A stretch of DNA of 64,000 nt from Escherichia coli (GTDB lineage: Bacteria; Pseudomonadota; Gammaproteobacteria; Enterobacterales; Enterobacteriaceae): assembly GCF_024700885.2 (NCBI RefSeq), contig NZ_CP117016.1; one strand, 5' to 3'. This document shows positions 4,105-48,800 of this stretch, piece by piece; the stretch's first letter is position 1; each line of letters begins with the position of its first letter. The position numbers and the translations under genes are program-made. Below the pieces are notes generated by a model. That model was not told the DNA's origin, did not search any database, and was given only the letters and a program-made list of their open reading frames with translations.

Positions 4105-4396
4105 AATCTACCCCTACACAGTTAACAAACCACTCCTTAAGACCTGCTACTGCGCCTTTATCCATCACATTCTTTGGATGTGGCTCATGTGTGCTGAATT
4201 TGGTCGTTCCAATCTGAAATTTTCGTCTGGAGCCGTTGTTATTTTTTATTGTTCCACCCACAGCTTTAATGAGTGCAACAACATCATCCCATTTAATTCC
4301 AGATTTTGGCGGCTCCGTCATTACATCGTCGAATGTTTTTCTATGACGAGAGCCTAGCGCGCTGACCTTAATCATACTATCAATCCATGACGTCAT
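4097..4396 (-). CDS. HicA-like toxin (putative mRNA interferase)
   Basis: 99 aa; segment GSRRKFQIGTTKFSTHEPHPKNVMDKGAVAGLKEW resembles the HicA core (GSH..F....HP.K); sits upstream of and overlapping its partner. Confidence 0.45.
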   Translation of the reverse strand: MTSWIDSMIKVSALGSRHRKTFDDVMTEPPKSGIKWDDVVALIKAVGGTIKNNNGSRRKFQIGTTKFSTHEPHPKNVMDKGAVAGLKEWFVNCVGVDYE

Positions 4397-7696: not shown

Positions 7697-8468
7697 AGTG
7701 ACCTTTCAGCGCGTCGAGTTGCTGCAACACAAAATTCGCCAGATGCAGATAGTGATCCGGCAGGTTGTAGAGCAGGGTGGCGAAGCAGACCAGCCCCGCC
7801 AGCATGTTGATGGGAAAGCCGAGCGAAAAGAGGTTCAGCGGCGGCGCGATGCGGTTGAGCAGGCCAAAGCAGCCCTGCACAATCAGCATGATAAAGGTGG
7901 TCGGCAGCGCCAGCAGCGATGCGGACGCCAGCACCCAGCTAAAGGCCAGTGCGATGGTGCGCAGGGGTTGCGGATGCAGCGCGTTGCCAATCGGCCAGTA
8001 GGTGAAGCCCTTATACAAAACACTCACCAGCAACAGATGCCCGTCCATGGCAAAAAACAGCAGGATTGCGTAGACGTTGATTAACTCCGCCAGCACGGTG
8101 GTCGATGCGCCGCTGCTCGGGTCGTTCATCACCGCCATGCTCATCCCCATATTGAACGAGAGAATTTGCCCGGCCAGTTGCAGCGCCAGAAACAGAAACT
8201 GAAACATCAGCCCGAACAACATGCCCCATAATATTTGCTCCACCGTCAGGATCAGGCTGTTGAGCGATAGCAGGTCGTGGGGAATGGGATGGGGGATCAA
8301 CGGCGTGATGATGATTGCCAGCGCCAGCGACAAAATGATCCGCACACGCACGGTCAGGGCGCTGTTATCCAGCACCGGCACATAGCGCAGAAACGCCATA
8401 ATGCGCACGAAGGGAAACCACAGCCCCATCGCCAGATCCATCAGTTGCGTAACGTCGCTTGTACGCAT
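7686..8468 (-). CDS. lfiR: flagellar export apparatus protein FliR homologue
   Basis: ORF 7686..8519; start trimmed to MRTSDVTQLM so it follows the lfiQ stop; polytopic membrane protein. Confidence 0.8.
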   Translation of the reverse strand: MRTSDVTQLMDLAMGLWFPFVRIMAFLRYVPVLDNSALTVRVRIILSLALAIIITPLIPHPIPHDLLSLNSLILTVEQILWGMLFGLMFQFLFLALQLAGQILSFNMGMSMAVMNDPSSGASTTVLAELINVYAILLFFAMDGHLLLVSVLYKGFTYWPIGNALHPQPLRTIALAFSWVLASASLLALPTTFIMLIVQGCFGLLNRIAPPLNLFSLGFPINMLAGLVCFATLLYNLPDHYLHLANFVLQQLDALKGHYGG

Positions 8469-25837: not shown

Positions 25838-25913
25838 GCCGATATAGCTCAGTTGGTAGAGCAGCGCATTCGTAATGCGAAGGTCGTAGGTTCGACTCCT
25901 ATTATCGGCACCA
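25838..25913 (+). tRNA. thrW: tRNA-Thr (anticodon CGU)
   Basis: GCCGATATAGCTCAGTTGGTAGAGCAGCGCATTCGTAATGCGAAGGTCGTAGGTTCGACTCCTATTATCGGCACCA; cloverleaf with CGT anticodon; integration site for the downstream island. Confidence 0.95.
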
Positions 25914-26077
25914 TCACCTAGTTTTCCCAAGTCAACCCACATCAACAAAATCATTTAAAAACATATATATTACGTTGTTTTCATACGTTTGAGGTCAACC
26001 CTTGTCTCTTGAAATCAACACGCGGTTGGGGGCACAATCAGGGGCATGTTCTGTTCGGTCTAGGAAATGTGCCCCCA

Positions 26078-27268
26078 ATGATGCTGAATGCCCGCAAGGT
26101 TGAAGCTGCGAAAGGAAAAGAGAAGAGCTACAAGCTGTTTGATGGAGGTGGCCTATATCTTCAGGTCGAACCTAATGGCTCGCGTTACTGGCGTATGAAA
26201 TACCGTTTTGCTGGTAAAGAGAAACGATTGTCCTTTGGTGTTTATCCAACAGTCACACTTGCTGATGCCAGACAAAAACGAGAAGACGCGAAGAAACTAC
26301 TCGCAGCAGGTGAAGATCCCGGCGAAGTCAAAAAAGCCAAAAAGCAGGCTTTAAATGCAGCGATTGAGACACTTAACCCATTCAGAGAAGTGGCGTTAGA
26401 GTGGCACAAAATGAAATCACCCAAATGGTCTGAGGGCTATGCTTCCGACATCATTGAGGCATTCGAGAAAGACATTTTCCCGCATATTGGGCACAGACCT
26501 ATAGCTGATATTCAGCCCCTTGAACTGCTTGAAGTTCTGAGATTGATAGAAGCTCGAGGCGCTATGGAGAAAGCGAAGAAAGTCCGTCAGCGATGCGGTG
26601 AAGTTTTTCGCTATGCCATCGTAACGGGTAGGGCAATCTACAATCCGGCACCGGATCTTGCCAGTGCGATGCAAGGACATGAAGCAGTCCACTATCCATT
26701 CCTCAAAGCCAACGAACTACCGGAGTTCTTTAATGCCCTTAATTCTTATTCAGGAAGTCCAATTGTATTGTTGGGGGCGCATTTACTTATCCTGACAGGT
26801 CTACGAACTGGAGAACTACGAGCAGGTGAGTGGCGAGAGGTGGATTTTGATAATGCGGTGTGGGAGATCCCAAAAGAACGTATGAAAATGCGTAGGAGCC
26901 ATATTGTCCCGTTGTCAAAACAAGCATTATCCCATCTCAAAAGTTTGAAAGAACTAACTGGGAACTACCCGCTGATGTTCCCTGGACGCAACGATCCTAG
27001 CAAATTTATGAGTGAAGCAAGCATTAATCAGGTGTTTAAACGTATTGGATATGCAGGGCGTGTTACGGGGCATGGTTTCAGGCATACGATGAGTACAATC
27101 CTACATGAGAAAGGATTTAACAGCGCTTGGATTGAAACCCAGCTTGCTCATTCGGACAAAAACTCTATTCGTGGAATTTATAACCATGCCCAATATCTCG
27201 AAGGGAGAAGAGAAATGATGCAATGGTATGCTAATTATTTATCTGAGCTAATTGGTACTCATAAATGA
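26078..27268 (+). CDS. P4-type tyrosine integrase (tRNA-targeting)
   Basis: ORF 26009..27268; likely start at MMLNARK; C-terminal catalytic region with HGFRHT and conserved Tyr (RGIYNHAQYLEGRREMMQWY); directly beside thrW. Confidence 0.85.
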   Translation: MMLNARKVEAAKGKEKSYKLFDGGGLYLQVEPNGSRYWRMKYRFAGKEKRLSFGVYPTVTLADARQKREDAKKLLAAGEDPGEVKKAKKQALNAAIETLNPFREVALEWHKMKSPKWSEGYASDIIEAFEKDIFPHIGHRPIADIQPLELLEVLRLIEARGAMEKAKKVRQRCGEVFRYAIVTGRAIYNPAPDLASAMQGHEAVHYPFLKANELPEFFNALNSYSGSPIVLLGAHLLILTGLRTGELRAGEWREVDFDNAVWEIPKERMKMRRSHIVPLSKQALSHLKSLKELTGNYPLMFPGRNDPSKFMSEASINQVFKRIGYAGRVTGHGFRHTMSTILHEKGFNSAWIETQLAHSDKNSIRGIYNHAQYLEGRREMMQWYANYLSELIGTHK

Positions 27269-29402: not shown

Positions 29403-29687
29403 ATGAATATTTCAAACGGGCACAACGGTGCTCAGGGCCACACTTTGCCTGAAAAACACAATACCGGTGCTTTTGCCTATGGGTTGTCAGAGGACAGTTT
29501 CGGAAAGCTGACCCGCGCAAGAAATGCCTGCGACATGCTCCAGCTTCTCTTTTCTGAATACCCGTCTCAGGCCGGAGCACTGGACGCTGGCTGTGCGCAT
29601 GGTGTCGCCGCGCTGATGGAGTACCTGCTGGCAGATTTGACGGATATTGCACACAGCTGCGCACTGATTGAAGGAGGTGCCAGATGA
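29403..29687 (+). CDS. hypothetical protein (island early region)
   Basis: 94-aa ORF, 4-nt overlap with the next ORF (operon-like). Confidence 0.4.
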   Translation: MNISNGHNGAQGHTLPEKHNTGAFAYGLSEDSFGKLTRARNACDMLQLLFSEYPSQAGALDAGCAHGVAALMEYLLADLTDIAHSCALIEGGAR

Positions 29688-30067
29688 ACCAGCCGCAGGT
29701 TTCCATTTTCCCGGCAGAAATGACCACCGCGCTTTACCGGCGGGCTATTGCTTCAGCATGGCGGCAGAAAATGCTGAACGAAACTGGCAGTGATCAGTAT
29801 GGTCCGCACAGCCTGACGGTGGAGCGTATTGAAATGGCCATTGCGCTGCATATCGAGTGCGTACTGATTAACGAGTACGGCGAAGTGCAGGGCGCCGCTG
29901 CCGCGCTGGCACTGCTGACTGACATGCTGGAGCCGTCACTGCTGACCGCGCCGCCGGTACTGACCGCGCGCGGCTGTGAAGTGATGGCGGAGATGTACCG
30001 CACGCTTCCGGCGGCCTTTGATGACTTCTGCAGTACCGGTGTGACGTTGTATGAGGGGGAAGTATGA
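29684..30067 (+). CDS. hypothetical protein (island early region, precedes primase)
   Basis: 127-aa ORF, 4-nt overlaps with both neighbours. Confidence 0.4.
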   Translation: MNQPQVSIFPAEMTTALYRRAIASAWRQKMLNETGSDQYGPHSLTVERIEMAIALHIECVLINEYGEVQGAAAALALLTDMLEPSLLTAPPVLTARGCEVMAEMYRTLPAAFDDFCSTGVTLYEGEV

Positions 30068-32736
30068 CAATACAGACGGTTACGCAGATTTCAGCCGCCG
30101 CACGGGGGAAATGGCCCGTTATTCTGCAGATGCTGCGTATTGATGTACCTGAAAACGGCAGGCACGGTCCCTGCCCGAAATGTGGGGGCAAGGATCGTTT
30201 TCGCCTTGATGACCTTGACGGGCGCGGGACGTGGATCTGCAGCCAGTGTGGCAATGGTGACGGTCTGGATCTGGTTAAGCTCGTAACCGGTTACAGCGTC
30301 AGAAAGGCTGCGCAGGAGGTGGCGCAGGTGCTTAATGTGCCGAATATGCAGGAACTGCCTGTTAAGCCTGCCAGACAAAAAGCCCCTAAACGCGACATGG
30401 GTCTTACCGTGGCGGCGCTGATGAAAGAGAGCCACACGGGAGAAAGCGCCTATCTGACAGGAAAAGGGTTCGCCGGATACCCGGCCTCTCTGACCGGAAG
30501 CGTGCAGCATATCAGCGGTAAGGATTTCCCTGCCGGTTCCCTGCTGTTACCACTCACGACCAACACCGGAGCCGTGACCGGTGCACAGCTTATCGCCCCG
30601 ACGGGTGAAAAAAGCATACTGCCCGGCAGCACGATGAAAGGCGCGTTTGTGTCGCTCAGCCCGTTACCGTCTGAACCACCGGTACAGGTGGTGATTACCG
30701 AAGGTTACGCTACGGCGCTGACGGTAAGTCAGCTCACTGCCGGATGCGTAGTGGCTGCCATATCTGCGGGCAACCTGCCCAATGTGGCGCAGTCGCTGCG
30801 GGCACGCTGGCCTGAGGTAAAAATTATCATCGCCGGTGATAACGATTTTCAGGACGGAGATGAGAATCCCGGCAGAGCCTTTGCTGAACGGGCGGCAAAA
30901 GCTGTTGGCGGCTGGATGACGCTGCCACCAGGAGAGATTAAGGCTGACTGGAATGACTTTCATCGGGAGCACGGTATTACCCGTGCCCGTGAAGCCTTTC
31001 GCAACGGTCTGGTACTGTGCGGGGAAGGCCGCACGCAACTGCCGCACGGGTTCCGTCTTACCCAGGAATATCTCTGGTATGAAAAGCAGGTACAGCGCAA
31101 CGGTGAGACGGAGATCCAGAACGTCAAAATATGCAGCCCGCTGCGCGTGACGGCAATCACCTGCGATGCCGATGGCGGTAACTTCGGACGACTGCTGGAA
31201 TGGGAAGATACGTGGGGTGAGTGTCGCCGCTGGGCGATGCCGATGGAAATGCTGAGCGGCAGTGGTGAGGAACTGCGCCGGGTACTGCTGGTTAACGGGC
31301 TGTCTTATATCAGCACCACCGGTGAGGCACGCGCACGCCTGATGGAATATATCTCACTGTGTAAACCGGAACGCCGCGTGACCTGCGTCAGTCGTACTGG
31401 CTGGCATGGTCAGGTTTACGTCCTGCAGGATGAGGTCAGCGGTGAAGGTGCAGAGGGTGTCATTCTCCAGACCACTTCCGTGCAGGGGCGTGATTTCCGC
31501 GTGTCGGGCACAACAGAGGAATGGCGGGAGCATGTATCCCGCTACTGTACCGGCAACTCCCGCGTGGCATTTGCTGTCAGCCTGGCCTTTGCTGCACCAC
31601 TGTTACGGCTGGTTGGTATGGACGGCGGCGGCTACCACCTCAAAGGGGAATCGACAGACGGTAAGACCACCACCATGAAAGCGGCAACCTCCGTCTGCGG
31701 CGGGCCTGACTACTGGCAGACATGGCGGGCCACCGGCAACGCGCTGGAGGGATGCGCCAGCCGCCGCAACGATGCCGCCATGATGCTTGATGAGATCCGG
31801 GAAGTTGACGGACGCGAGGCAGGCAATATCGCCTACATGCTGGCAAACGGTCAGGGCAAGGGCCGTGCCGGTACGGACGGTGAGCTGCGTACCCGTAAGC
31901 AGTGGCGCCTGTTGTTCTTTTCAACTGGCGAGTTGTCTCTGACCGAACATGCGGCAAAGGCCGGTGAGCGTACTTTTGCCGGGATGGAAGTCAGGATGAT
32001 CCAGATCCCCAGCGATTCCGGGAAGTTTGGCGTTTTTGAGGAGCTGCACGGCTTCGACAGCGGCAAGGCTCTGGCAGAGCATCTTGAATGGGCCACGTCC
32101 TGCTACTACGGTTCGCCGTTCCGGGAGTGGCTGAAAGCACTGACCGCTGATCTTAACGGACTAACGGCACAGGCAAAATCGCTGATGAAGGAATATGCTG
32201 CCGCCCTGACTCCGAAAGATGCAGGCAATCAGGTGGGCCGGGCTGTGAACCGCTTTGCTCTGGTGGCGATGGCAGGTGAACTGGCAACCCGTCTGGGTAT
32301 CACCGGCTGGCCTGAGGGTGAAGCACTGCGGGCAACCCGCGTCTGCCTGAACGCATGGCTGAAAGATCGCGGGCACACCGCCAATCAGGAAGATATCGCC
32401 GCACTGGAGCAGGTTCGCAGTTTCTTTACCGCGAATCAGTACAGCCGCTTTGCAGACTGGTATGACGAGCGCAACCGCCCCGGCAATATGGTGGGCTGGC
32501 GCAGGGTGGAGAAAGGCAGTACCGCGCAGGGCACGGAAGCTGTCACTACGTTCTATGTCATGCCGTCCGGCTGGAAAGAAATCTGCAGGGGATTTGACCC
32601 GCGCAAGGTGGCGCGTCTGTGCGCAGATCGTGGATACCTGCTGCCCTCCACAGATGGCAAACTCCAGACAACCATTCGCCCGCCAGAGATGAATCCCCGC
32701 AGGCTCTATGTCTTCAACAGCGAGGTGCCTGGTTAA
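30064..32736 (+). CDS. P4 alpha-type primase/helicase (zinc-binding primase domain, Toprim, P-loop NTPase)
   Basis: 890 aa; N-terminal Cys4 zinc motif (CPKCGGKDRF...CSQCGNGDG), Toprim-like acidic region, Walker A GESTDGKTT. Confidence 0.88.
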   Translation: MTIQTVTQISAAARGKWPVILQMLRIDVPENGRHGPCPKCGGKDRFRLDDLDGRGTWICSQCGNGDGLDLVKLVTGYSVRKAAQEVAQVLNVPNMQELPVKPARQKAPKRDMGLTVAALMKESHTGESAYLTGKGFAGYPASLTGSVQHISGKDFPAGSLLLPLTTNTGAVTGAQLIAPTGEKSILPGSTMKGAFVSLSPLPSEPPVQVVITEGYATALTVSQLTAGCVVAAISAGNLPNVAQSLRARWPEVKIIIAGDNDFQDGDENPGRAFAERAAKAVGGWMTLPPGEIKADWNDFHREHGITRAREAFRNGLVLCGEGRTQLPHGFRLTQEYLWYEKQVQRNGETEIQNVKICSPLRVTAITCDADGGNFGRLLEWEDTWGECRRWAMPMEMLSGSGEELRRVLLVNGLSYISTTGEARARLMEYISLCKPERRVTCVSRTGWHGQVYVLQDEVSGEGAEGVILQTTSVQGRDFRVSGTTEEWREHVSRYCTGNSRVAFAVSLAFAAPLLRLVGMDGGGYHLKGESTDGKTTTMKAATSVCGGPDYWQTWRATGNALEGCASRRNDAAMMLDEIREVDGREAGNIAYMLANGQGKGRAGTDGELRTRKQWRLLFFSTGELSLTEHAAKAGERTFAGMEVRMIQIPSDSGKFGVFEELHGFDSGKALAEHLEWATSCYYGSPFREWLKALTADLNGLTAQAKSLMKEYAAALTPKDAGNQVGRAVNRFALVAMAGELATRLGITGWPEGEALRATRVCLNAWLKDRGHTANQEDIAALEQVRSFFTANQYSRFADWYDERNRPGNMVGWRRVEKGSTAQGTEAVTTFYVMPSGWKEICRGFDPRKVARLCADRGYLLPSTDGKLQTTIRPPEMNPRRLYVFNSEVPG

Positions 32737-32769
32737 GGCTTTGCGTGAGTCTTATTTATTAAGGGTAAC

Positions 32770-32960
32770 AGGTGAAACAGGTGGAACAACCGTATTTTAC
32801 AGGGCTGAACCTGTTCCACCTTCTGAAATAGTGAGGTGGAACAGATGTAACGCCAGCCAATCCGCTGTTCCACCTTGTTACCCGCGATGTTCCACCGGTG
32901 CAGTGTATATAAATGCCTTATAAAACAAAGCCGTAACACATGTTTCACCTGTTCCACCGC
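32770..32960. repeat. iteron cluster (repeated GGTGGAACA/TGTTCCACC motif), candidate replication origin/crr
   Basis: At least six copies of the TGTTCCACC core in both orientations within about 190 bp directly downstream of the primase gene. Confidence 0.55.
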
Positions 32961-33046
32961 ATCAGGGACATAAAGCAGACTGAAACAGAGGGCATTTTTA
33001 TCTGGCTGGCTTTCATAGCCACGTCTGAATAACCGCAAGCGCCCGT

Positions 33047-33102
33047 TGTGCCAGCCACCACACACTGAACACCGATAGTGTGCTTGTGTCAGCCACGACA
33101 CA
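33047..33102 (+). promoter_or_regulatory. two TGT-N12-ACA dyads (Ogr/Delta-type activator sites), candidate late promoter
   Basis: TGTgccagccaccacACA (33047-33064) and TGTgtcagccacgacACA (33085-33102) upstream of the sid-like gene. Confidence 0.5.
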
Positions 33103-33136
33103 ATTGACGTAACGAACCAACCCGACAGGAGAAGTC

Positions 33137-33880
33137 ATGAACAATACCGCAGTAAATAACAACCTTTCCACTTTTCCGGCTGTAACGCAGCGGGCACTGG
33201 AAACCATGAACACAGCCAGAAACGCATGGCTTGAAGCACGTCGTCAGCAGAAAGCGGCAGCGGATAATATTGCGACAATCCGCCAGCGTCGCGCTGAAAT
33301 GGAAGCCACGACGAACACACTGAATGAGGAGTGGCGCACGCTGTTTCGTGAAAGTCAGGGCGTGATCTCAAAGGAAATGAAAAAACTGCGCACGGAAATT
33401 GCGCTGGGACGAGAAACGCTTGAGGATTTTGATGAGCTGCTGGCGGCTCAGGAAAGCGAAAATGCACTTTTGCCGCAGAAAGCTGCAGAATTAGCCGGAA
33501 AGTATATCCACGCGCATAACATTCTTGTGGATATTCGCGCAAAACAAATCTGGGAGGATTTTATGCAGTCGCATGGAAAAGTGCTTATTCAGACGCTGAG
33601 CCTGCTTAAATCCACAATGGGCCGGGAAGCCAGTGCCGTTGTGGGTGTGGTGAATTCAGTTAATGACCCGGACACAGTGCTGAAAGACTTTATTCATAAA
33701 TATATCACCAGACCGGCTCTGGCTAACGATGCGATGCCTGAGCAGGACCCGGTGTTTAAACTGGCGGGAGTTGCCCCGGATTATGCGGCGCGTCTGGATT
33801 TCAGTAATCAACTCTCTCCGGCAGCTATGCATAAAATTAAGGTTCGTCAGGAACTTGCTGAGAAGGAGAAAGCAGTATGA
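33137..33880 (+). CDS. Sid-like capsid size-determination (external scaffold) protein
   Basis: 247-aa helix-rich protein; first gene of the late operon downstream of the TGT-N12-ACA dyads and immediately upstream of the Psu-like gene; assignment by context and size. Confidence 0.45.
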   Translation: MNNTAVNNNLSTFPAVTQRALETMNTARNAWLEARRQQKAAADNIATIRQRRAEMEATTNTLNEEWRTLFRESQGVISKEMKKLRTEIALGRETLEDFDELLAAQESENALLPQKAAELAGKYIHAHNILVDIRAKQIWEDFMQSHGKVLIQTLSLLKSTMGREASAVVGVVNSVNDPDTVLKDFIHKYITRPALANDAMPEQDPVFKLAGVAPDYAARLDFSNQLSPAAMHKIKVRQELAEKEKAV

Positions 33881-34428
33881 CGGCCCGAGGCACGCCTGAC
33901 CAGGCACTTACCAGTTTTCGGAATGCCCGTATTCTGTGGGCCGGACATAATGAGAGCCGAAAAGCCGTTGAACAACAGATAACATCTCTCCTCGCTGCCA
34001 CAGAAAAACCAGCAGATTATGCCCGACAGCTCGAATTACTGCGGGAACGTCTGGATGTGCTGAAATGGCAAATTAACTGTGCTGCGCGCGAATGCATTTA
34101 CTCGCAGCATTTACTGATGGAGGCCTGCACAGAAGCCGCTCTCAGCAATTTTATGCAGGCGAATGGGGCAGCCCTGACATCTGCACTGGCTCCGTTCCTG
34201 AAGGGGCGCGGAGGGGTTGACGTTGCGTCCCGTATATTACGCAGTGCTCTGGTTCGCCAGCTGGCAATAACACCGCCTGAATTTGCCGGGGATTATCGTG
34301 AGATCCTGGATGAATCCGGTTTGATGCTTGACCCCGGGATGATTCGTGATTGCCAGGGTTCTTACACCCCGGCACAACATCTGCGTTTTCAGCAACGCCT
34401 GAATGACATTAACGATATACAGGAGTGA
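33877..34428 (+). CDS. Psu-like polarity-suppression / capsid-decoration protein
   Basis: 183 aa; motifs recalled from P4 Psu (LKWQINCAAR, HG.ALA.ALAP, TPAQHLRFQQR); 4-nt overlap with the sid-like gene. Confidence 0.65.
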   Translation: MTARGTPDQALTSFRNARILWAGHNESRKAVEQQITSLLAATEKPADYARQLELLRERLDVLKWQINCAARECIYSQHLLMEACTEAALSNFMQANGAALTSALAPFLKGRGGVDVASRILRSALVRQLAITPPEFAGDYREILDESGLMLDPGMIRDCQGSYTPAQHLRFQQRLNDINDIQE

Positions 34429-34433
34429 TATTA

Positions 34434-34706
34434 ATGGCACTTAAATGTCCGGAATGCGGTACAGTTGCACACGCCAGAACAGCAGCCTATGAAGCTCCGT
34501 CAGTTAAACGCTCGTGGTATCAGTGCCAGAATCTGGAATGTTCCTGCACATTTACGGCACTGGAGAGTGTGGATAAGATAATCATGAAACCCCGGCGCAA
34601 TGAACAGGAACCAGACAAATCACAAACCCCGGTAAAACAACAGCAAACGCTCAATCGCTATGGCTCCGCGTCAAAACTGTCAAGCCGTCAGCAGATTCCT
34701 GTCTGA
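34434..34706 (+). CDS. Ogr/Delta-family zinc-finger late transcriptional activator
   Basis: ORF 34425..34706; start trimmed to MALKCPECG with AGGAG upstream; Cys4 pattern CPECG...CQNLEC typical of Ogr/Delta. Confidence 0.75.
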   Translation: MALKCPECGTVAHARTAAYEAPSVKRSWYQCQNLECSCTFTALESVDKIIMKPRRNEQEPDKSQTPVKQQQTLNRYGSASKLSSRQQIPV

Positions 34707-34753: not shown

Positions 34754-35289
34754 AACACCTTACCCCTGGCTGGCCTGAGAGCGCATGAGTGCATGTCTAT
34801 GGCGCATGAAAACGCATGAGTCTCATGCACCATTTTTGACGCGAAAGCCCTTGTGTGGTGGCTTCTGAGACGATTAATGAGGTGCATGAAAACCAGTCTG
34901 TTAAGTGAAGCGGGAAGGCGTGCGGGGCTGCGCACGTAGCAGGGTTAAATGGTCAATTCTGGCGCAGCTCACGACATTAAGTCAGCCTCAATAGATGTAC
35001 GTGTTGGTAGGGGTAATTCGCTACTTTTTTGTATCCTAAATTGTATGGTTTGATGCTGATCGTTTCTTCACCGCACCTGCAGAGATATCAATTCAATGTG
35101 GACAAAAATGAGTCTGGCTCTTTCCGTATCACTAGAATTGCCAGTATTGTTAGGGATGATGCCCATATCATACGGAGGGAGCCAGTGGGGGCGATTGCGC
35201 GTGGAAAGTGCTTTGGATTTATTCATCGGTTTTATGATTCTACATAAGGAGCAAAGGTACTTGTATCGTATGAAAAAAAATAGTATAGA

Positions 35290-35520
35290 TATAATGCTCC
35301 TTACGCGTTATGGCATAGTTATATGCTAGTCGGGCGATTAGCCAGACTCGAACTTATTGAACGGTATTAGGGTTGCGCTTGGTGTGCCTCTGGATTGCAC
35401 TCCATGCTGTCGCGCAATCCAGAGGCACACCAAGCGCTTCCTTTAGGTAAGTGAGTAAAAACAGCACCTTCTTCGATTTATGATGAAGGTGCTGCAATCG
35501 TAACGTTTTTTGTATACACG
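35290..35520 (+). ncRNA. candidate retron msr-msd non-coding RNA
   Basis: Non-coding stretch directly upstream of the effector-RT pair with a perfect 24-bp stem (35375-35398 / 35414-35437, 15-nt loop) and a second 10-bp stem (35462-35471 / 35485-35494); exact ends and a1/a2 repeats not resolved. Confidence 0.55.
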
Positions 35521-35529
35521 GATAGTATA

Positions 35530-36498
35530 GTGGCTGAGACATACGAAGATAAAGTTGCTAATCATGTTTCAGAGTGGGAAATGGAAAATTTCCGTGTATG
35601 TTATGATGATCAGGTTATTTTCTTATGTGGTGCGGAAGTACTTCCTCAAGGAAGTGTTCAGACTTCAATGAGAGGGCATTTTTATCACTATTGCCTGAAT
35701 AAAAATAAAGATATAGCTGATAAAATAATTCTTGCCGAAAACTTCAAAAAATATCTTCAAAATAATCATTATCCAGACTTAATAACTTTTGAGCATGATG
35801 TTGCAAGTATATCTAGTTTAGTTGTTATTTTCTTGGAAAGCAGTGGTTCAATTGCTGAGTTAGGTGTTTTCTGTAATATTAGTGATGTCAATAAAAAATT
35901 ATTGATATTTGTTCCATCAGATGAAGTTGAAGGTGACAAGAAAGAGTCTTTCATTTACTTAGGGCCTTTATTGTTTTTAAAAGAAAAGGTCAATGAAAAA
36001 GCATTTAAGATTTATCCAAAACCCACTAATGGTTCTGATTACTCCGAGCATTTAGAGATTATGGCTGATGACTTGGCTGAACTATTACCTAGAAGTGGTA
36101 AGTTTGAAAGCTTCGATCCTGACAATTTAGGGCATATAGCTTTTCTTATATGCAGAATTGTGCATTTAGTAATGCCTATTAAGCTAAAGGAAATATTAAA
36201 TTGTTTAAAAATAATAGGTATCAATAAATATACTCTGACTGAGGTTGAAAGAATTTTGTTTTTATTGGAAACATTGGGTTTTATAAATATTTATCCGTAT
36301 GGCGATTTAAAATACTATTATTCAATGCAAGCCAGGCAAAATCTTAAATTAGGGAAAAATAAAACCGGATTCACAATCGATGAGGCTGGTATTTTTACTG
36401 ATATTAGTGTTTTTATCAATGACAATAAATTATGTAGTGATAAAAAAAGACGGCTGGTTTTGAAAGGCATTAAGGAGAAGCATAATGGACATAATTAA
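35530..36498 (+). CDS. retron effector candidate: nucleoside 2-deoxyribosyltransferase-like (NDT-like) protein with C-terminal putative DNA-binding region
   Basis: 322 aa (GTG start in the ORF track); Rossmann-like N-terminus with ESSGSIAELG motif resembling the NDT-family catalytic Glu region; overlaps the RT gene by 14 nt; AT-rich. Confidence 0.6.
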   Translation: MAETYEDKVANHVSEWEMENFRVCYDDQVIFLCGAEVLPQGSVQTSMRGHFYHYCLNKNKDIADKIILAENFKKYLQNNHYPDLITFEHDVASISSLVVIFLESSGSIAELGVFCNISDVNKKLLIFVPSDEVEGDKKESFIYLGPLLFLKEKVNEKAFKIYPKPTNGSDYSEHLEIMADDLAELLPRSGKFESFDPDNLGHIAFLICRIVHLVMPIKLKEILNCLKIIGINKYTLTEVERILFLLETLGFINIYPYGDLKYYYSMQARQNLKLGKNKTGFTIDEAGIFTDISVFINDNKLCSDKKRRLVLKGIKEKHNGHN

Positions 36499-37417
36499 AA
36501 AAATCGCAGATGAAACTCTAATGCCGGTATCAAAAGTATCTGCTTTTATATTTACAGCCCCATATAGATATAAAGTATATCCCATCCCCAAAAGGAATGG
36601 TGGGTTTAGGGAGATTGCTCAACCGTCAAGGGCATTAAAGTTTATGCAAAGGATTGTTATTGCTGAACTAGAGAAAGTACTTAAGGTTCATGAAAACGCA
36701 TATGCTTATGTCAAAGGACGTAGTATAAAAGATAATGTGGAAAAGCATCAAAGAAACTCTTATATTTTGAAAGTTGATTTCTGCGACTTTTTTAATAGCA
36801 TAAACCCTTACGACCTTGAGTTATGTTTAAAAAACAATGGGTTAGACTCATTGTTAAGCTCACAAGAATTATTGAATAAACTTTTTTTCTATAAGAAAAG
36901 TAAAAGAGGTGCTTTATCAATGAGCATCGGGGCACCTAGTTCTCCATTTTTGTCAAATGCGATTATGTATAAGTTTGATTCAGTCATTAGTGATATGTGT
37001 TCAAATAAAAATATTACTTATACAAGATATGCTGATGATCTTACATTTTCTACTAATGAAAAAGGTATTTTGTATGAATTCATACATGAAATAGATAAAG
37101 TTCTTGAGGAGATAGATAGTCCTAAATTAAAACTAAATGATAAGAAAACCATATTTGCATCTAAAAAATGCAATCGTCATATAACAGGAATTGTTATTAA
37201 TAACGAAGAAAAACTTTCAATTGGTAGAGATAAAAAACGTTACTTAAGTAGTTTAATTCATAAATTCTCGCTTAATGCACTTAATGAGGAAGGAGTTGAA
37301 CATTTAAAAGGGTATTTGGCGTATGTAAATAAAATTGAACCTTCATTCATTAGCAGAATGAAAAGGAAATATGGAGTCGAAGTTGTCAACTCCATAATCA
37401 CATTTAATCCATTATAA
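36485..37417 (+). CDS. retron-type reverse transcriptase
   Basis: 310 aa; RT motifs YRYKVYPIPKRNGGFREIAQPSRALK, VDFCDFFNSI, GAPSSPFLSNAIM, TRYADDLTFS (YADD active site), HITGIVI; distant resemblance to the Ec86 RT. Confidence 0.9.
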   Translation: MDIIKKIADETLMPVSKVSAFIFTAPYRYKVYPIPKRNGGFREIAQPSRALKFMQRIVIAELEKVLKVHENAYAYVKGRSIKDNVEKHQRNSYILKVDFCDFFNSINPYDLELCLKNNGLDSLLSSQELLNKLFFYKKSKRGALSMSIGAPSSPFLSNAIMYKFDSVISDMCSNKNITYTRYADDLTFSTNEKGILYEFIHEIDKVLEEIDSPKLKLNDKKTIFASKKCNRHITGIVINNEEKLSIGRDKKRYLSSLIHKFSLNALNEEGVEHLKGYLAYVNKIEPSFISRMKRKYGVEVVNSIITFNPL

Positions 37418-48552: not shown

Positions 48553-48800
48553 TGCATTGAATAATAAAAATGGCGCAAATGCAGCGCCATTTTTATAGGT
48601 TAAAAACATTGCTTTTTACTTTCTGAAGCAGATAGCCAGTGAGTACATCGCGCTACTTCAGGATGCTGTAGATCCGGAGAACACTATAGAGGAAGATGCA
48701 TTGTTGCTGGCAGATGGAAGAAGTTTCGGGTTTTGTTATCCCTGAAAAACGAAGCCCCGCGGTTATAGCTGGCGGGGCAGTGCAATTAATTATTGCATAT

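What the first reader, a model, noticed from the sequence alone, without database searches (positions are those of the whole stretch)
32770..32960. Iteron cluster immediately downstream of the primase/helicase gene
At least six copies of the 9-bp core TGTTCCACC (and its complement GGTGGAACA) occur in both orientations within about 190 bp. This resembles the ori/crr organisation of P4, where the alpha protein binds short repeats, and suggests an autonomously replicating element.
Basis: partly seen in the sequence, partly recalled or inferred. Interest (0 to 1): 0.4.

Follow-up and report, generated by a model that had tools for sequence, protein, structure and literature searches.

The report
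Replication origin of a P4-like satellite
The repeat cluster is real and is most likely the replication origin of a small P4-like satellite prophage, bound by the primase-helicase encoded just upstream; this is an expected kind of feature, but it has not been described for this protein family.

Summary
TGTTCCACC occurs six times exactly, on both strands, at 32780-32958. The whole 64-kb window would give 0.45 by chance. There are also two one-mismatch copies and about four degenerate copies, making 12 repeat positions over 32762-32958. A 35% GC spacer lies at 32897-32931.

The cluster starts 26 bp after the stop codon of an 890-aa protein. That protein is a P4-alpha-like primase fused to a DUF927 helicase with a C-terminal winged helix, as in SaPI Rep and SCCmec Cch. 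It belongs to a P4-like satellite at tRNA-Thr that carries int, cnr-like, sid-like, psu, delta and a retron.

All 37 usable related loci from Enterobacterales have one cluster with the same architecture. The repeat sequence differs by lineage (seven types). It switches in all copies together between alpha proteins that are 96-98% identical. In those pairs divergence peaks at the repeats and at the alpha C-terminus. Within this element's type, the six exact repeats never vary while the spacers do.

Best reading: a single-site iteron origin recognised by the winged helix of alpha. It works like SaPI and PICI rep-ori modules. It sits in the positions of both P4 crr and P4 ori, but it is not the two-site P4 system. 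Binding and origin function are inferred, not shown. I class it as a new member of a known kind, of moderate interest.

The parts
25838..25913 (+). tRNA-Thr (anticodon CGU); left boundary and attachment site of the satellite
   Evidence: ARAGORN and Rfam tRNA; the integrase gene starts 96 bp downstream.
26009..27268 (+). Tyrosine integrase of the satellite
   Evidence: Pfam Arm-DNA-bind_3, Phage_int_M and Phage_integrase; RefSeq annotation.
29684..30067 (+). DUF5375 protein, counterpart of P4 ORF106 (cnr); its stop codon overlaps the alpha start codon
   Evidence: Pfam DUF5375, E=2.4e-13; phrog_5991, 3.4e-39. P4 ORF106 is annotated DUF5375 and sits directly upstream of alpha. PMC8628076 places cnr between epsilon and alpha.
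30064..32736 (+). Alpha-like replication protein, 890 aa: Zn-ribbon and Toprim primase (aa 5-316), DUF927 helicase (aa 330-612), helical linker and C-terminal winged helix
   Evidence: Pfam. 39% identity to P4 alpha over aa 5-316 only. Sequence matches in the PDB are SaPIbov1 Rep 8TCH and Cch 5DGK. phrog_1139 matches full length, 1.8e-183.
32404..32733 (+). Part of the alpha gene encoding the C-terminal winged-helix domain (aa 781-890), the proposed iteron reader
32746..32761 (.). Conserved AT-rich leader TGAGTCTTATTTATTA; the core CTTATnTnT is invariant in 15 aligned origins
   Evidence: Invariant columns 18-26 of alignment A3. The leader travels with the cluster in L041, where a gene separates alpha from the origin.
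32762..32788 (-). Left array of three abutting 9-mers: AGGGTAACA, GGTGAAACA, GGTGGAACA (TGTTCCACC on the minus strand)
32812..32820 (+). Single iteron TGTTCCACC
   Evidence: invariant in 8 type-A sequences.
32835..32852 (-). Iteron pair GGTGGAACA plus the decayed copy GATGTAACG
   Evidence: The second copy reads GGTGGAACG in six of the seven other type-A sequences.
32866..32896 (+). Inner right group: TGTTCCACC, degenerate TGTTACCC, TGTTCCACC
32897..32931 (.). AT-rich spacer (about 35% GC) with the conserved motif CTTWTAAAWCAA; the presumed site of DNA melting
   Evidence: Composition profile; conserved position and partial sequence in A3. This is the most variable stretch among type-A copies.
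32932..32958 (+). Right array of three abutting 9-mers: CGTAACACA, TGTTTCACC, TGTTCCACC; inverted relative to the left array
   Evidence: (inverted repeat I3).
33047..33102 (+). Late promoter region of the Psid type: two TGT-N12-ACA dyads (33047-33064 and 33085-33102)
   Evidence: The 38-bp spacing and the 35 nt to the ATG are identical to P4 Psid. Both dyads are conserved in type-A loci.
33137..33880 (+). Sid-like protein
   Evidence: phrog_6165, 9.9e-92; weak Pfam Psu match.
33877..34428 (+). Psu
   Evidence: Pfam Psu, 5.4e-43; phrog_6366, 9.2e-69.
34434..34706 (+). Ogr/Delta-type late activator
   Evidence: RefSeq annotation; phrog_603, 2.9e-21.

Best explanation
The interval 32746-32958 is the single replication origin of a roughly 12-kb P4-like satellite prophage inserted next to tRNA-Thr. 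It has 12 positions for a 9-bp iteron with consensus (C)TGTTCCACC(T). Three abutting copies at each end point in opposite directions. Inner copies of both orientations and a 35-bp AT-rich spacer lie between them. The alpha-like protein encoded immediately upstream is proposed to read the iterons with its C-terminal winged helix. It would then assemble as hexamers on either side of the AT-rich spacer, melt it, load itself as the replicative helicase and prime with its own N-terminal primase. The DUF5375 (Cnr-like) protein encoded just upstream probably modulates this, as Cnr does in P4.

Shown here: the repeats, their statistics, conserved architecture, lineage-specific sequence with concerted switching, purifying selection on the repeats, and the predicted winged-helix fold with its closest structural relatives.

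Inferred: protein-DNA binding, melting, helicase loading, and origin activity in the cell.
For: - **Statistics.** There are 6 exact copies in 179 bp against 0.45 expected in 64 kb.
- **Conserved position and architecture.** Thirty-five of 37 usable relatives (55-98% protein identity, many genera of Enterobacterales) have 6-13 repeats at about +25 to +300 after the alpha stop, most ending near +230. The order of orientations is the same and the AT-rich spacer is in the same place. The other two loci carry the same module about 1.1 kb downstream, after an inserted ORF.
- **One cluster per element.** There are 232 core matches inside clusters and 3 elsewhere in about 330 kb of loci.
- **Lineage-specific sequence.** Seven iteron types were found: GGTGGAACA, GGTGTAACA, TGGTAACA, GGGTAACA, GTGGTTACA, TGTAGTACA and GTGGGAACA.
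- **Concerted switching.** Alpha pairs that are 98%, 97.5% and 96.5% identical carry different iterons at every position. In these pairs DNA identity drops only at the cluster and the last 100-200 nt of alpha. Seventeen of their 70 amino-acid differences fall in aa 840-890, where 4 are expected (binomial p=3e-7). Same-type Xenorhabdus pairs have 0 of 75 differences there.
- **Purifying selection.** In 8 type-A sequences, 0 of 54 columns in the six exact iterons vary, against 33 of 125 other columns in the cluster (Fisher p=3e-6).
- **Literature precedent.** SaPI Rep uses a C-terminal winged helix to bind iterons directly downstream of rep, in two sets around an AT-rich region (PMC9371898 and PMC7581432). 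The E. coli PICI pri-rep-ori supports plasmid replication (PMC6092414). P4 annotates its type 1 repeats as ori and crr.
Against: - No experiment here shows binding or origin activity.
- The pooled test of C-terminal enrichment over all close pairs is not significant (p=0.11).
- N-terminal residues (aa 1-270) also differ in every switch pair, so the reading domain is not pinned down.
- No simple residue-to-base code emerged.
- Tandem copies are 9 bp apart, so neighbouring sites lie on different faces of the DNA helix. How hexamers use them is unknown.
- No terminator or sigma-70 promoter was detected around the cluster. Read-through from the alpha operon is therefore possible, and its effect is unknown.
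Confidence: 0.85

Rival explanations
1. The cluster is only a crr-like auxiliary site, used for enhancement or for copy-number control by pairing of bound sites. Initiation would happen at a separate origin elsewhere in the element, as in P4, where both ori and crr are needed.
For: The cluster sits exactly where P4 has crr, just after the alpha stop. A Cnr-like gene is present.
Against: The element has no second cluster. Between 25914 and 38000 there are no further matches to the 8-bp core GTGGAACA, and the only one-mismatch match to the 9-mer outside the cluster is at 35910. In the 34 related loci scanned, 3 core matches lie outside the clusters against 226 inside. The cluster contains its own AT-rich spacer flanked by opposed iterons, which is the full anatomy of a SaPI/PICI origin. 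It also lies about 89 bp upstream of the Psid-type dyads, close to the 80 bp seen for P4 ori.
Confidence: 0.07
2. The repeats are operator sites for a transcription factor such as the AlpA/Vis-like HTH protein, delta or Cnr. The factor would control read-through from the alpha operon or the downstream late operon. The repeats would not be an origin.
For: The cluster lies between two operons and upstream of a late promoter. No terminator separates alpha from sid. The cnr-like gene also shows a local identity dip in two of three switch pairs.
Against: The delta/Ogr-type dyads are separate and stay conserved while the iterons change. In the Pectobacterium pair the iterons switch while the cnr region stays 99% identical. 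The same cluster follows DUF927 genes in islands that lack sid, psu and delta (L047). Twelve sites around an AT-rich spacer is typical of an origin, not of an operator.
Confidence: 0.04
3. The iterons are read by the N-terminal Zn-ribbon/primase part of alpha, the only part shared with P4 alpha, rather than by the C-terminal winged helix. This would explain why the P4 iteron TGTTCACC and this TGTTCCACC are so alike.
For: The P4 and window iterons differ by one inserted C, while the helicase and C-terminal domains belong to different Pfam families. N-terminal residues differ in all switch pairs.
Against: L047 has a DUF927 protein with no primase domain and still has a typical cluster. The N-terminal region varies in same-type pairs too. 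Among domains, the core of the winged helix separates same-type from different-type pairs best (AUC 0.81 against 0.59 for aa 1-120). In P4, and in SaPI Rep, the C-terminal domain is the origin binder (my knowledge of Ziegelin et al. for P4; PMC9371898 for SaPI).
Confidence: 0.04

Closest known systems
SaPI and Gram-negative PICI rep-ori modules (SaPIbov1 Rep, PDB 8TCH; EcCICFT073 pri-rep-ori)
   Same: The origin lies directly 3' of the initiator-helicase gene. It consists of 6-12 short iterons in opposed sets around an AT-rich region. The initiator has a C-terminal winged helix, and iteron sequence differs between alleles. The helicase core (DUF927) and the C-terminal domain match SaPIbov1 Rep by sequence and by fold (PMC9371898, PMC6092414).
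   Different: Here the iterons are 9 bp long and abut one another, whereas SaPI iterons are 5-6 bp. The helicase is fused to a P4-type Zn-ribbon/Toprim primase. The host element is a P4-like satellite with sid, psu, delta and a cos-like site, not a PICI. EcCICFT073 itself uses a D5-type Pri-Rep and TGTCTACC-type repeats.
Bacteriophage P4 ori and crr with alpha protein
   Same: The primase domain is homologous (39% identity). The iteron core is near-identical: P4 TGTTCACC against TGTTCCACC here. Abutting copies are 9 bp apart, as in crr. The cluster lies right after the alpha stop, like crr, and 80-90 bp upstream of the Psid dyads, like ori. A cnr-like gene sits upstream of alpha.
   Different: P4 needs two clusters about 4.5 kb apart, whereas this element has one. 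P4 alpha has a D5_N/DUF5906 helicase and a Pox_D5 origin-binding domain (PDB 1KA8); this protein has DUF927 and a Rep/Cch-type C-terminal domain. No exact P4 octamer was found downstream of alpha here. Gene order also differs: here alpha and sid are adjacent and co-directional.
SCCmec Cch (DUF927, MCM-like helicase; PDB 5DGK)
   Same: The DUF927 helicase core and the C-terminal domain fold are shared.
   Different: Cch is encoded by a staphylococcal cassette chromosome. PMC7581432 describes a putative origin for the unrelated Cch2, not for Cch.

Membership tests
SaPI/PICI-type iteron origin with a self-loading Rep helicase | The origin lies immediately downstream of the initiator-helicase gene | tested here: met
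   The first repeat starts 26 bp after the stop at 32736. The same holds in 35 of 37 relatives. In two loci a 335-aa ORF intervenes.
SaPI/PICI-type iteron origin with a self-loading Rep helicase | Multiple short iterons in opposed sets flanking an AT-rich region | tested here: met
   There are twelve positions. The outer triples are inverted relative to each other, and a 35% GC spacer lies at 32897-32931.
SaPI/PICI-type iteron origin with a self-loading Rep helicase | The initiator is related to Rep and carries a C-terminal winged-helix domain | tested here: met
SaPI/PICI-type iteron origin with a self-loading Rep helicase | Iteron sequence matches the initiator allele (cognate specificity) | tested here: met
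   There are seven iteron types. Switching is concerted in pairs that are 96-98% identical, and changes are enriched in aa 840-890. This is comparative evidence only.
SaPI/PICI-type iteron origin with a self-loading Rep helicase | The initiator binds the iterons, and rep plus ori drives autonomous replication | not testable with these tools
   This needs binding assays and a replication assay.
P4 two-site ori/crr replicon | Alpha has a Zn-ribbon/Toprim primase at its N-terminus | tested here: met
   39% identity over aa 5-316, E=1e-48; Pfam Zn_Ribbon_Prim and Toprim_3.
P4 two-site ori/crr replicon | Alpha helicase of the D5 (SF3) type with a Pox_D5 origin-binding domain (PDB 1KA8) | tested here: not met
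P4 two-site ori/crr replicon | Type 1 iteron is the octamer TGTTCACC | tested here: not met
   The 500 bp downstream of alpha contain no exact P4 octamer. The repeat is the 9-mer TGTTCCACC, one base longer.
P4 two-site ori/crr replicon | Two separate iteron clusters (ori and crr), both required in cis | tested here: not met
   There is a single cluster per element: 232 core matches inside clusters and 3 outside.
P4 two-site ori/crr replicon | A cnr (ORF106/DUF5375) gene directly upstream of alpha | tested here: met
   29684-30067 matches DUF5375 and phrog_5991. P4 ORF106 is annotated DUF5375.
P4-like satellite (the element as a whole) | Core set of genes: integrase, alpha, sid, psu, delta, and an AlpA/Vis-like HTH protein | tested here: met
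   Epsilon was not identified by name. The gene order differs from P4: alpha, sid, psu and delta are co-directional.
P4-like satellite (the element as a whole) | A cos site of the P2/P4 type | tested here: inconclusive
   AAGCGGGAAGGCGTGCGGGGCTGCGCAC at about 34909-34937 resembles the P4 cos junction, but only by eye.

The most novel reading that the evidence does not exclude
The alpha winged helix and its origin form a fast-evolving specificity module. At least seven iteron classes sit on one fixed origin scaffold. Switches between classes are achieved by five to eight amino-acid changes, for example K/R at residue 866, which tracks the second base of the iteron. These classes may act as replication-specificity groups that keep related satellites in the same cell or the same helper burst from competing for, or being silenced by, each other's initiator and Cnr. 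A further speculation is that the split ori and crr of P4 descend from such a single alpha-adjacent origin, because this cluster occupies both P4 positions at once.
Probability: 0.3. Interest if true: 0.55.

Novelty: new member of a known kind. Interest (0 to 1): 0.35.

Why it matters
About 6% of complete E. coli genomes (326 of 5426) carry this exact region. DUF927-type alpha genes with the same kind of origin occur in about 17% (918 of 5426) and across Enterobacterales.

Locating the origin gives a defined, compact replicon of alpha plus about 215 bp. It can be used to study how these satellites amplify after helper infection, including the amplification of their defence cargo (here a retron).

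The natural series of iteron switches on a constant scaffold is a ready-made data set for working out how a winged helix reads DNA, and for testing whether specificity classes prevent cross-talk between co-resident satellites.

The finding also shows that P4-like satellites have exchanged the helicase and origin-binding half of alpha for a SaPI Rep-type module while keeping the P4 primase, Cnr and late genes.

Tried and rejected
- **DNA search in phage records.** A blastn search of 32700-33140 against the phage collection found nothing.
- **Sequence-level matches for the C-terminal region.** Pfam at E up to 10 on aa 641-890 gave no family. A profile search of the PDB gave only chance hits. Structure prediction was needed.
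- **Promoter and terminator scan.** Nothing was found in 32600-33250, so there is no support for a terminator like the one between alpha and crr in P4.
- **Right-hand attachment site.** Searching for a repeat of the tRNA-Thr 3' end with up to 3 mismatches found none, and no long direct repeat bounds the element. The right end is only approximate, near 37.9-38.3 kb.
- **Pooled enrichment test.** Enrichment of C-terminal differences over all close pairs was not significant (p=0.11). Only the three closest independent switch pairs give a clear signal.
- **Residue-to-base code.** Tabulating aa 840-890 gave no simple code; only K/R866 tracks one iteron position.
- **Integrase arm sites.** Rejected, because the cluster is about 7 kb from the left attachment junction at the tRNA and about 5 kb from the approximate right end of the element.
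- **Coding ORFs over the cluster.** The mechanical ORFs 32708-32923 (+) and 32733-33101 (-) are not annotated in RefSeq, and the conservation pattern follows the repeats rather than codons.
- **16-nt repeat.** The repeat at 32987 and 35671 does not extend and looks incidental.
- **Published iteron sequences.** The PICI paper supplements did not contain iteron sequences to compare. The Ziegelin 1993 paper was not held.

Full report
**1. Observation**

The 9-mer TGTTCCACC has seven exact matches in the 64-kb window. Six lie at 32780(-), 32812(+), 32835(-), 32866(+), 32888(+) and 32950(+). Dinucleotide-preserving shuffles give a mean of 0.45 and never more than 2. With one mismatch allowed, two more copies (TGTTTCACC) appear at 32771(-) and 32941(+), abutting the outermost exact copies.

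The repeat finder shows the extended unit CTGTTCCACCT. It also shows that the two outer tandem pairs form an 18-nt inverted repeat. Alignment with relatives reveals four further decayed positions at 32762-32770, 32844-32852, 32876-32883 and 32932-32940. The full array therefore has 12 positions over 32762-32958.

A 35% GC spacer lies at 32897-32931, between the inner copies and the right-hand triple.

**2. Context**

The cluster starts 26 bp after the stop codon (32736) of an 890-aa ORF with Zn_Ribbon_Prim, Toprim_3 and DUF927 domains. The neighbourhood is a P4-like satellite at tRNA-Thr (25838-25913). Its genes, in order, are:

- integrase, a hypothetical gene, an HTH protein and an Icd-like protein;
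- a DUF5375 protein, the family of P4 ORF106 (cnr);
- the primase-helicase, followed by the repeats;
- a Sid-like protein, Psu and an Ogr/Delta zinc-finger protein;
- a retron (msr RNA).

Between the repeats and the sid-like gene lie two TGT-N12-ACA dyads at 33047 and 33085. They are 38 bp apart, and the second ends 35 nt before the ATG. This is exactly the geometry of P4 Psid.

The region is present in 326 of 5426 complete E. coli genomes.

**3. The protein**

Only aa 5-316 resemble P4 alpha (39% identity).

- P4 alpha continues with D5_N, DUF5906 and Pox_D5 domains, and its origin-binding domain is solved as 1KA8.
- The window protein continues with DUF927. Its only sequence matches in the PDB are SaPIbov1 Rep (8TCH) and SCCmec Cch (5DGK).

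The protein is therefore a chimera: a P4-type primase joined to a Rep/Cch-type self-loading helicase with a winged-helix tail.

**4. Comparative test**

A scan of one genome per species returned 43 loci encoding relatives, of which 37 had usable downstream sequence.

- In 35 loci, a cluster of 6-13 short repeats lies about 25-300 bp after the stop codon, most ending near +230.
- In the remaining two (L033, L041), the same module, including its conserved leader, lies about 1.1 kb downstream behind an inserted 335-aa ORF.

The architecture is conserved. It runs: leader CTTATnTnT, three tandem forward copies, one reverse, two forward, two or three reverse, an AT-rich CTTWTAAAWCAA segment, and three tandem reverse copies.

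The repeat sequence is not conserved. It falls into seven types:

| Type | Iteron |
|---|---|
| A | GGTGGAACA (this window and five other genome-contig loci) |
| B | GGTGTAACA |
| C | TGGTAACA |
| D | GGGTAACA |
| E | GTGGTTACA |
| F | TGTAGTACA |
| G | GTGGGAACA |

. Each element has one cluster only: 232 core matches fall inside clusters and 3 elsewhere in about 330 kb.

The same module follows DUF927 genes in two other kinds of E. coli island. One is an ST131 satellite with a P2-type capsid gene. The other is an ssrA island whose DUF927 protein has no primase domain.

**5. Co-variation**

Three independent pairs of nearly identical proteins carry different iterons at every position of an otherwise alignable origin:

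- Pectobacterium L042/L019, 98% identical;
- Proteus L024/L025, 97.5% identical;
- Xenorhabdus L022/L023, 96.5% identical.

Along the DNA, identity is 90-100% through alpha and beyond the origin. It dips to 58-81% at the cluster and to 85-94% in the last 100-200 nt of alpha.

Of the 70 amino-acid differences in these three pairs, 17 lie in aa 840-890, where 4 are expected (binomial p=3e-7). Three Xenorhabdus proteins with the same iteron type differ at 0 of 75 positions there. The changes fall in two places:

- positions 846, 850 and 854, which are one face of the predicted recognition helix;
- positions 860-870 and 878-887, which form the wing.

Residue 866 is K in types whose iteron starts GG and R in types with T at the second base. 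This includes the L022/L023 switch.

There are caveats. The pooled test over all close pairs is not significant (p=0.11). N-terminal residues also differ in every pair. The sequences are phylogenetically related.

**6. Selection within type A**

Eight type-A sequences from several genera were aligned. None of the 54 columns in the six exact iterons varies, whereas 33 of 125 other columns inside the cluster vary (Fisher p=3e-6).

**7. Interpretation**

The anatomy, the conservation pattern and the nature of the protein all fit an iteron origin read by the initiator-helicase encoded just upstream. This is the arrangement described for:

- SaPI Rep, whose origin lies directly downstream of rep, with 6-12 iterons in opposed sets around an AT-rich centre, read by a C-terminal winged helix (PMC9371898; PMC7581432);
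- Gram-negative PICIs, where pri-rep-ori of EcCICFT073 supports plasmid maintenance (PMC6092414).

Relative to P4, the cluster sits where crr sits (after the alpha stop) and also where ori sits (80-90 bp upstream of the Psid dyads). This is because alpha and sid are adjacent here. The P4 octamer TGTTCACC differs from this 9-mer by one base.

Three defining P4 features were tested and not met: two clusters, a D5-type helicase with a Pox_D5 origin-binding domain, and the exact octamer. I therefore say it works like a SaPI/PICI origin inside a P4-like satellite. It is not a member of the P4 two-site ori/crr system.

**8. Rivals**

- *A crr-only auxiliary site.* This is unlikely because there is no second cluster and this one has a complete origin anatomy.
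- *A transcriptional operator.* This is unlikely for three reasons. The late-promoter dyads are separate and stable. The iterons switch in a pair whose cnr region is unchanged. The module also occurs in islands without sid, psu or delta.
- *Reading by the N-terminal primase.* This is unlikely because a primase-less DUF927 protein keeps the module, and the winged-helix core separates same-type from different-type pairs best (AUC 0.81 against 0.59).

**9. Novelty and score**

Full-text searches found no paper describing origins or iterons for enterobacterial DUF927 primase-helicases. The P4-like satellite survey does not discuss origins.

The kind of feature is well known, so this is a new member of a known kind. 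The added value is the seven specificity classes on one scaffold and the chimeric alpha. Interest 0.35.

Noticed in passing
window 33047-33064 and 33085-33102: Two near-identical TGT-N12-ACA dyads lie 38 bp apart, and the second ends 35 nt before the sid-like ATG. This is the same geometry as the two dyads of P4 Psid, so it is probably the delta/Ogr-activated late promoter.
   Followed up: partly
window 35296-37417: A retron forms the cargo: Rfam msr at 35296-35365 (53.4 bits), a long msd-type hairpin at about 35370-35440, an effector at 35530-36498 and a reverse transcriptase at 36485-37417 (RefSeq calls it the retron St85 family). It sits between delta and the right end, which is the P4 defence hotspot position.
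   Followed up: partly
window about 34909-34937: The cos-like sequence AAGCGGGAAGGCGTGCGGGGCTGCGCAC resembles the P4 cos junction AAGCGGGCG|GGCGAGGCGGGGAAAGCAC. The comparison was made by eye only.
   Followed up: partly
window about 1-25500: In the RefSeq strain whose 441-bp region is identical to the window, a P22-like prophage (portal, P22 capsid, tailspike, acyltransferase) lies directly upstream of the same tRNA-Thr. Prophage and satellite are therefore neighbours at one tRNA locus. The one stray TGTTCCACC copy at 4250 would fall inside the prophage if the layout of the reference strain holds for the window.
   Followed up: partly
window 32987-33002 and 35671-35686: There is an exact 16-nt direct repeat, AGAGGGCATTTTTATC. 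One copy lies between the origin and the late promoter, the other inside the retron effector ORF. The similarity does not extend, so it is probably incidental.
   Followed up: yes
L041 6649-8040 and L033 (about 7780-8100): In two Klebsiella-type relatives a 335-aa ORF is inserted between alpha and the origin. The origin, with its leader motif, is intact (type GTGGGAACA). This shows that the origin is a self-contained module.
   Followed up: partly
L046 (E. coli ST131, tRNA-Arg) and L047 (ssrA island): Other island types reuse the DUF927 gene plus downstream iteron origin. One has a P2-family capsid gene, Ogr/Delta and sce7726/sce7725 genes but no sid or psu. The other has a primase-less DUF927 protein and alternating GTGGTACA/GTGGGACA repeats next to helicase-type cargo genes.
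   Followed up: partly
alpha residue 866 (window 32659-32661): Residue 866 is K in iteron types beginning GG (A, B, D) and R in types with T at the second base (C, E, G). The pattern includes the close Xenorhabdus switch pair. This residue is a candidate specificity determinant, although shared ancestry confounds the correlation.
   Followed up: partly
window 48558-48758: Rfam matches IS009 (190.7 bits). The match lies outside the satellite and is unrelated to the finding.
   Followed up: no
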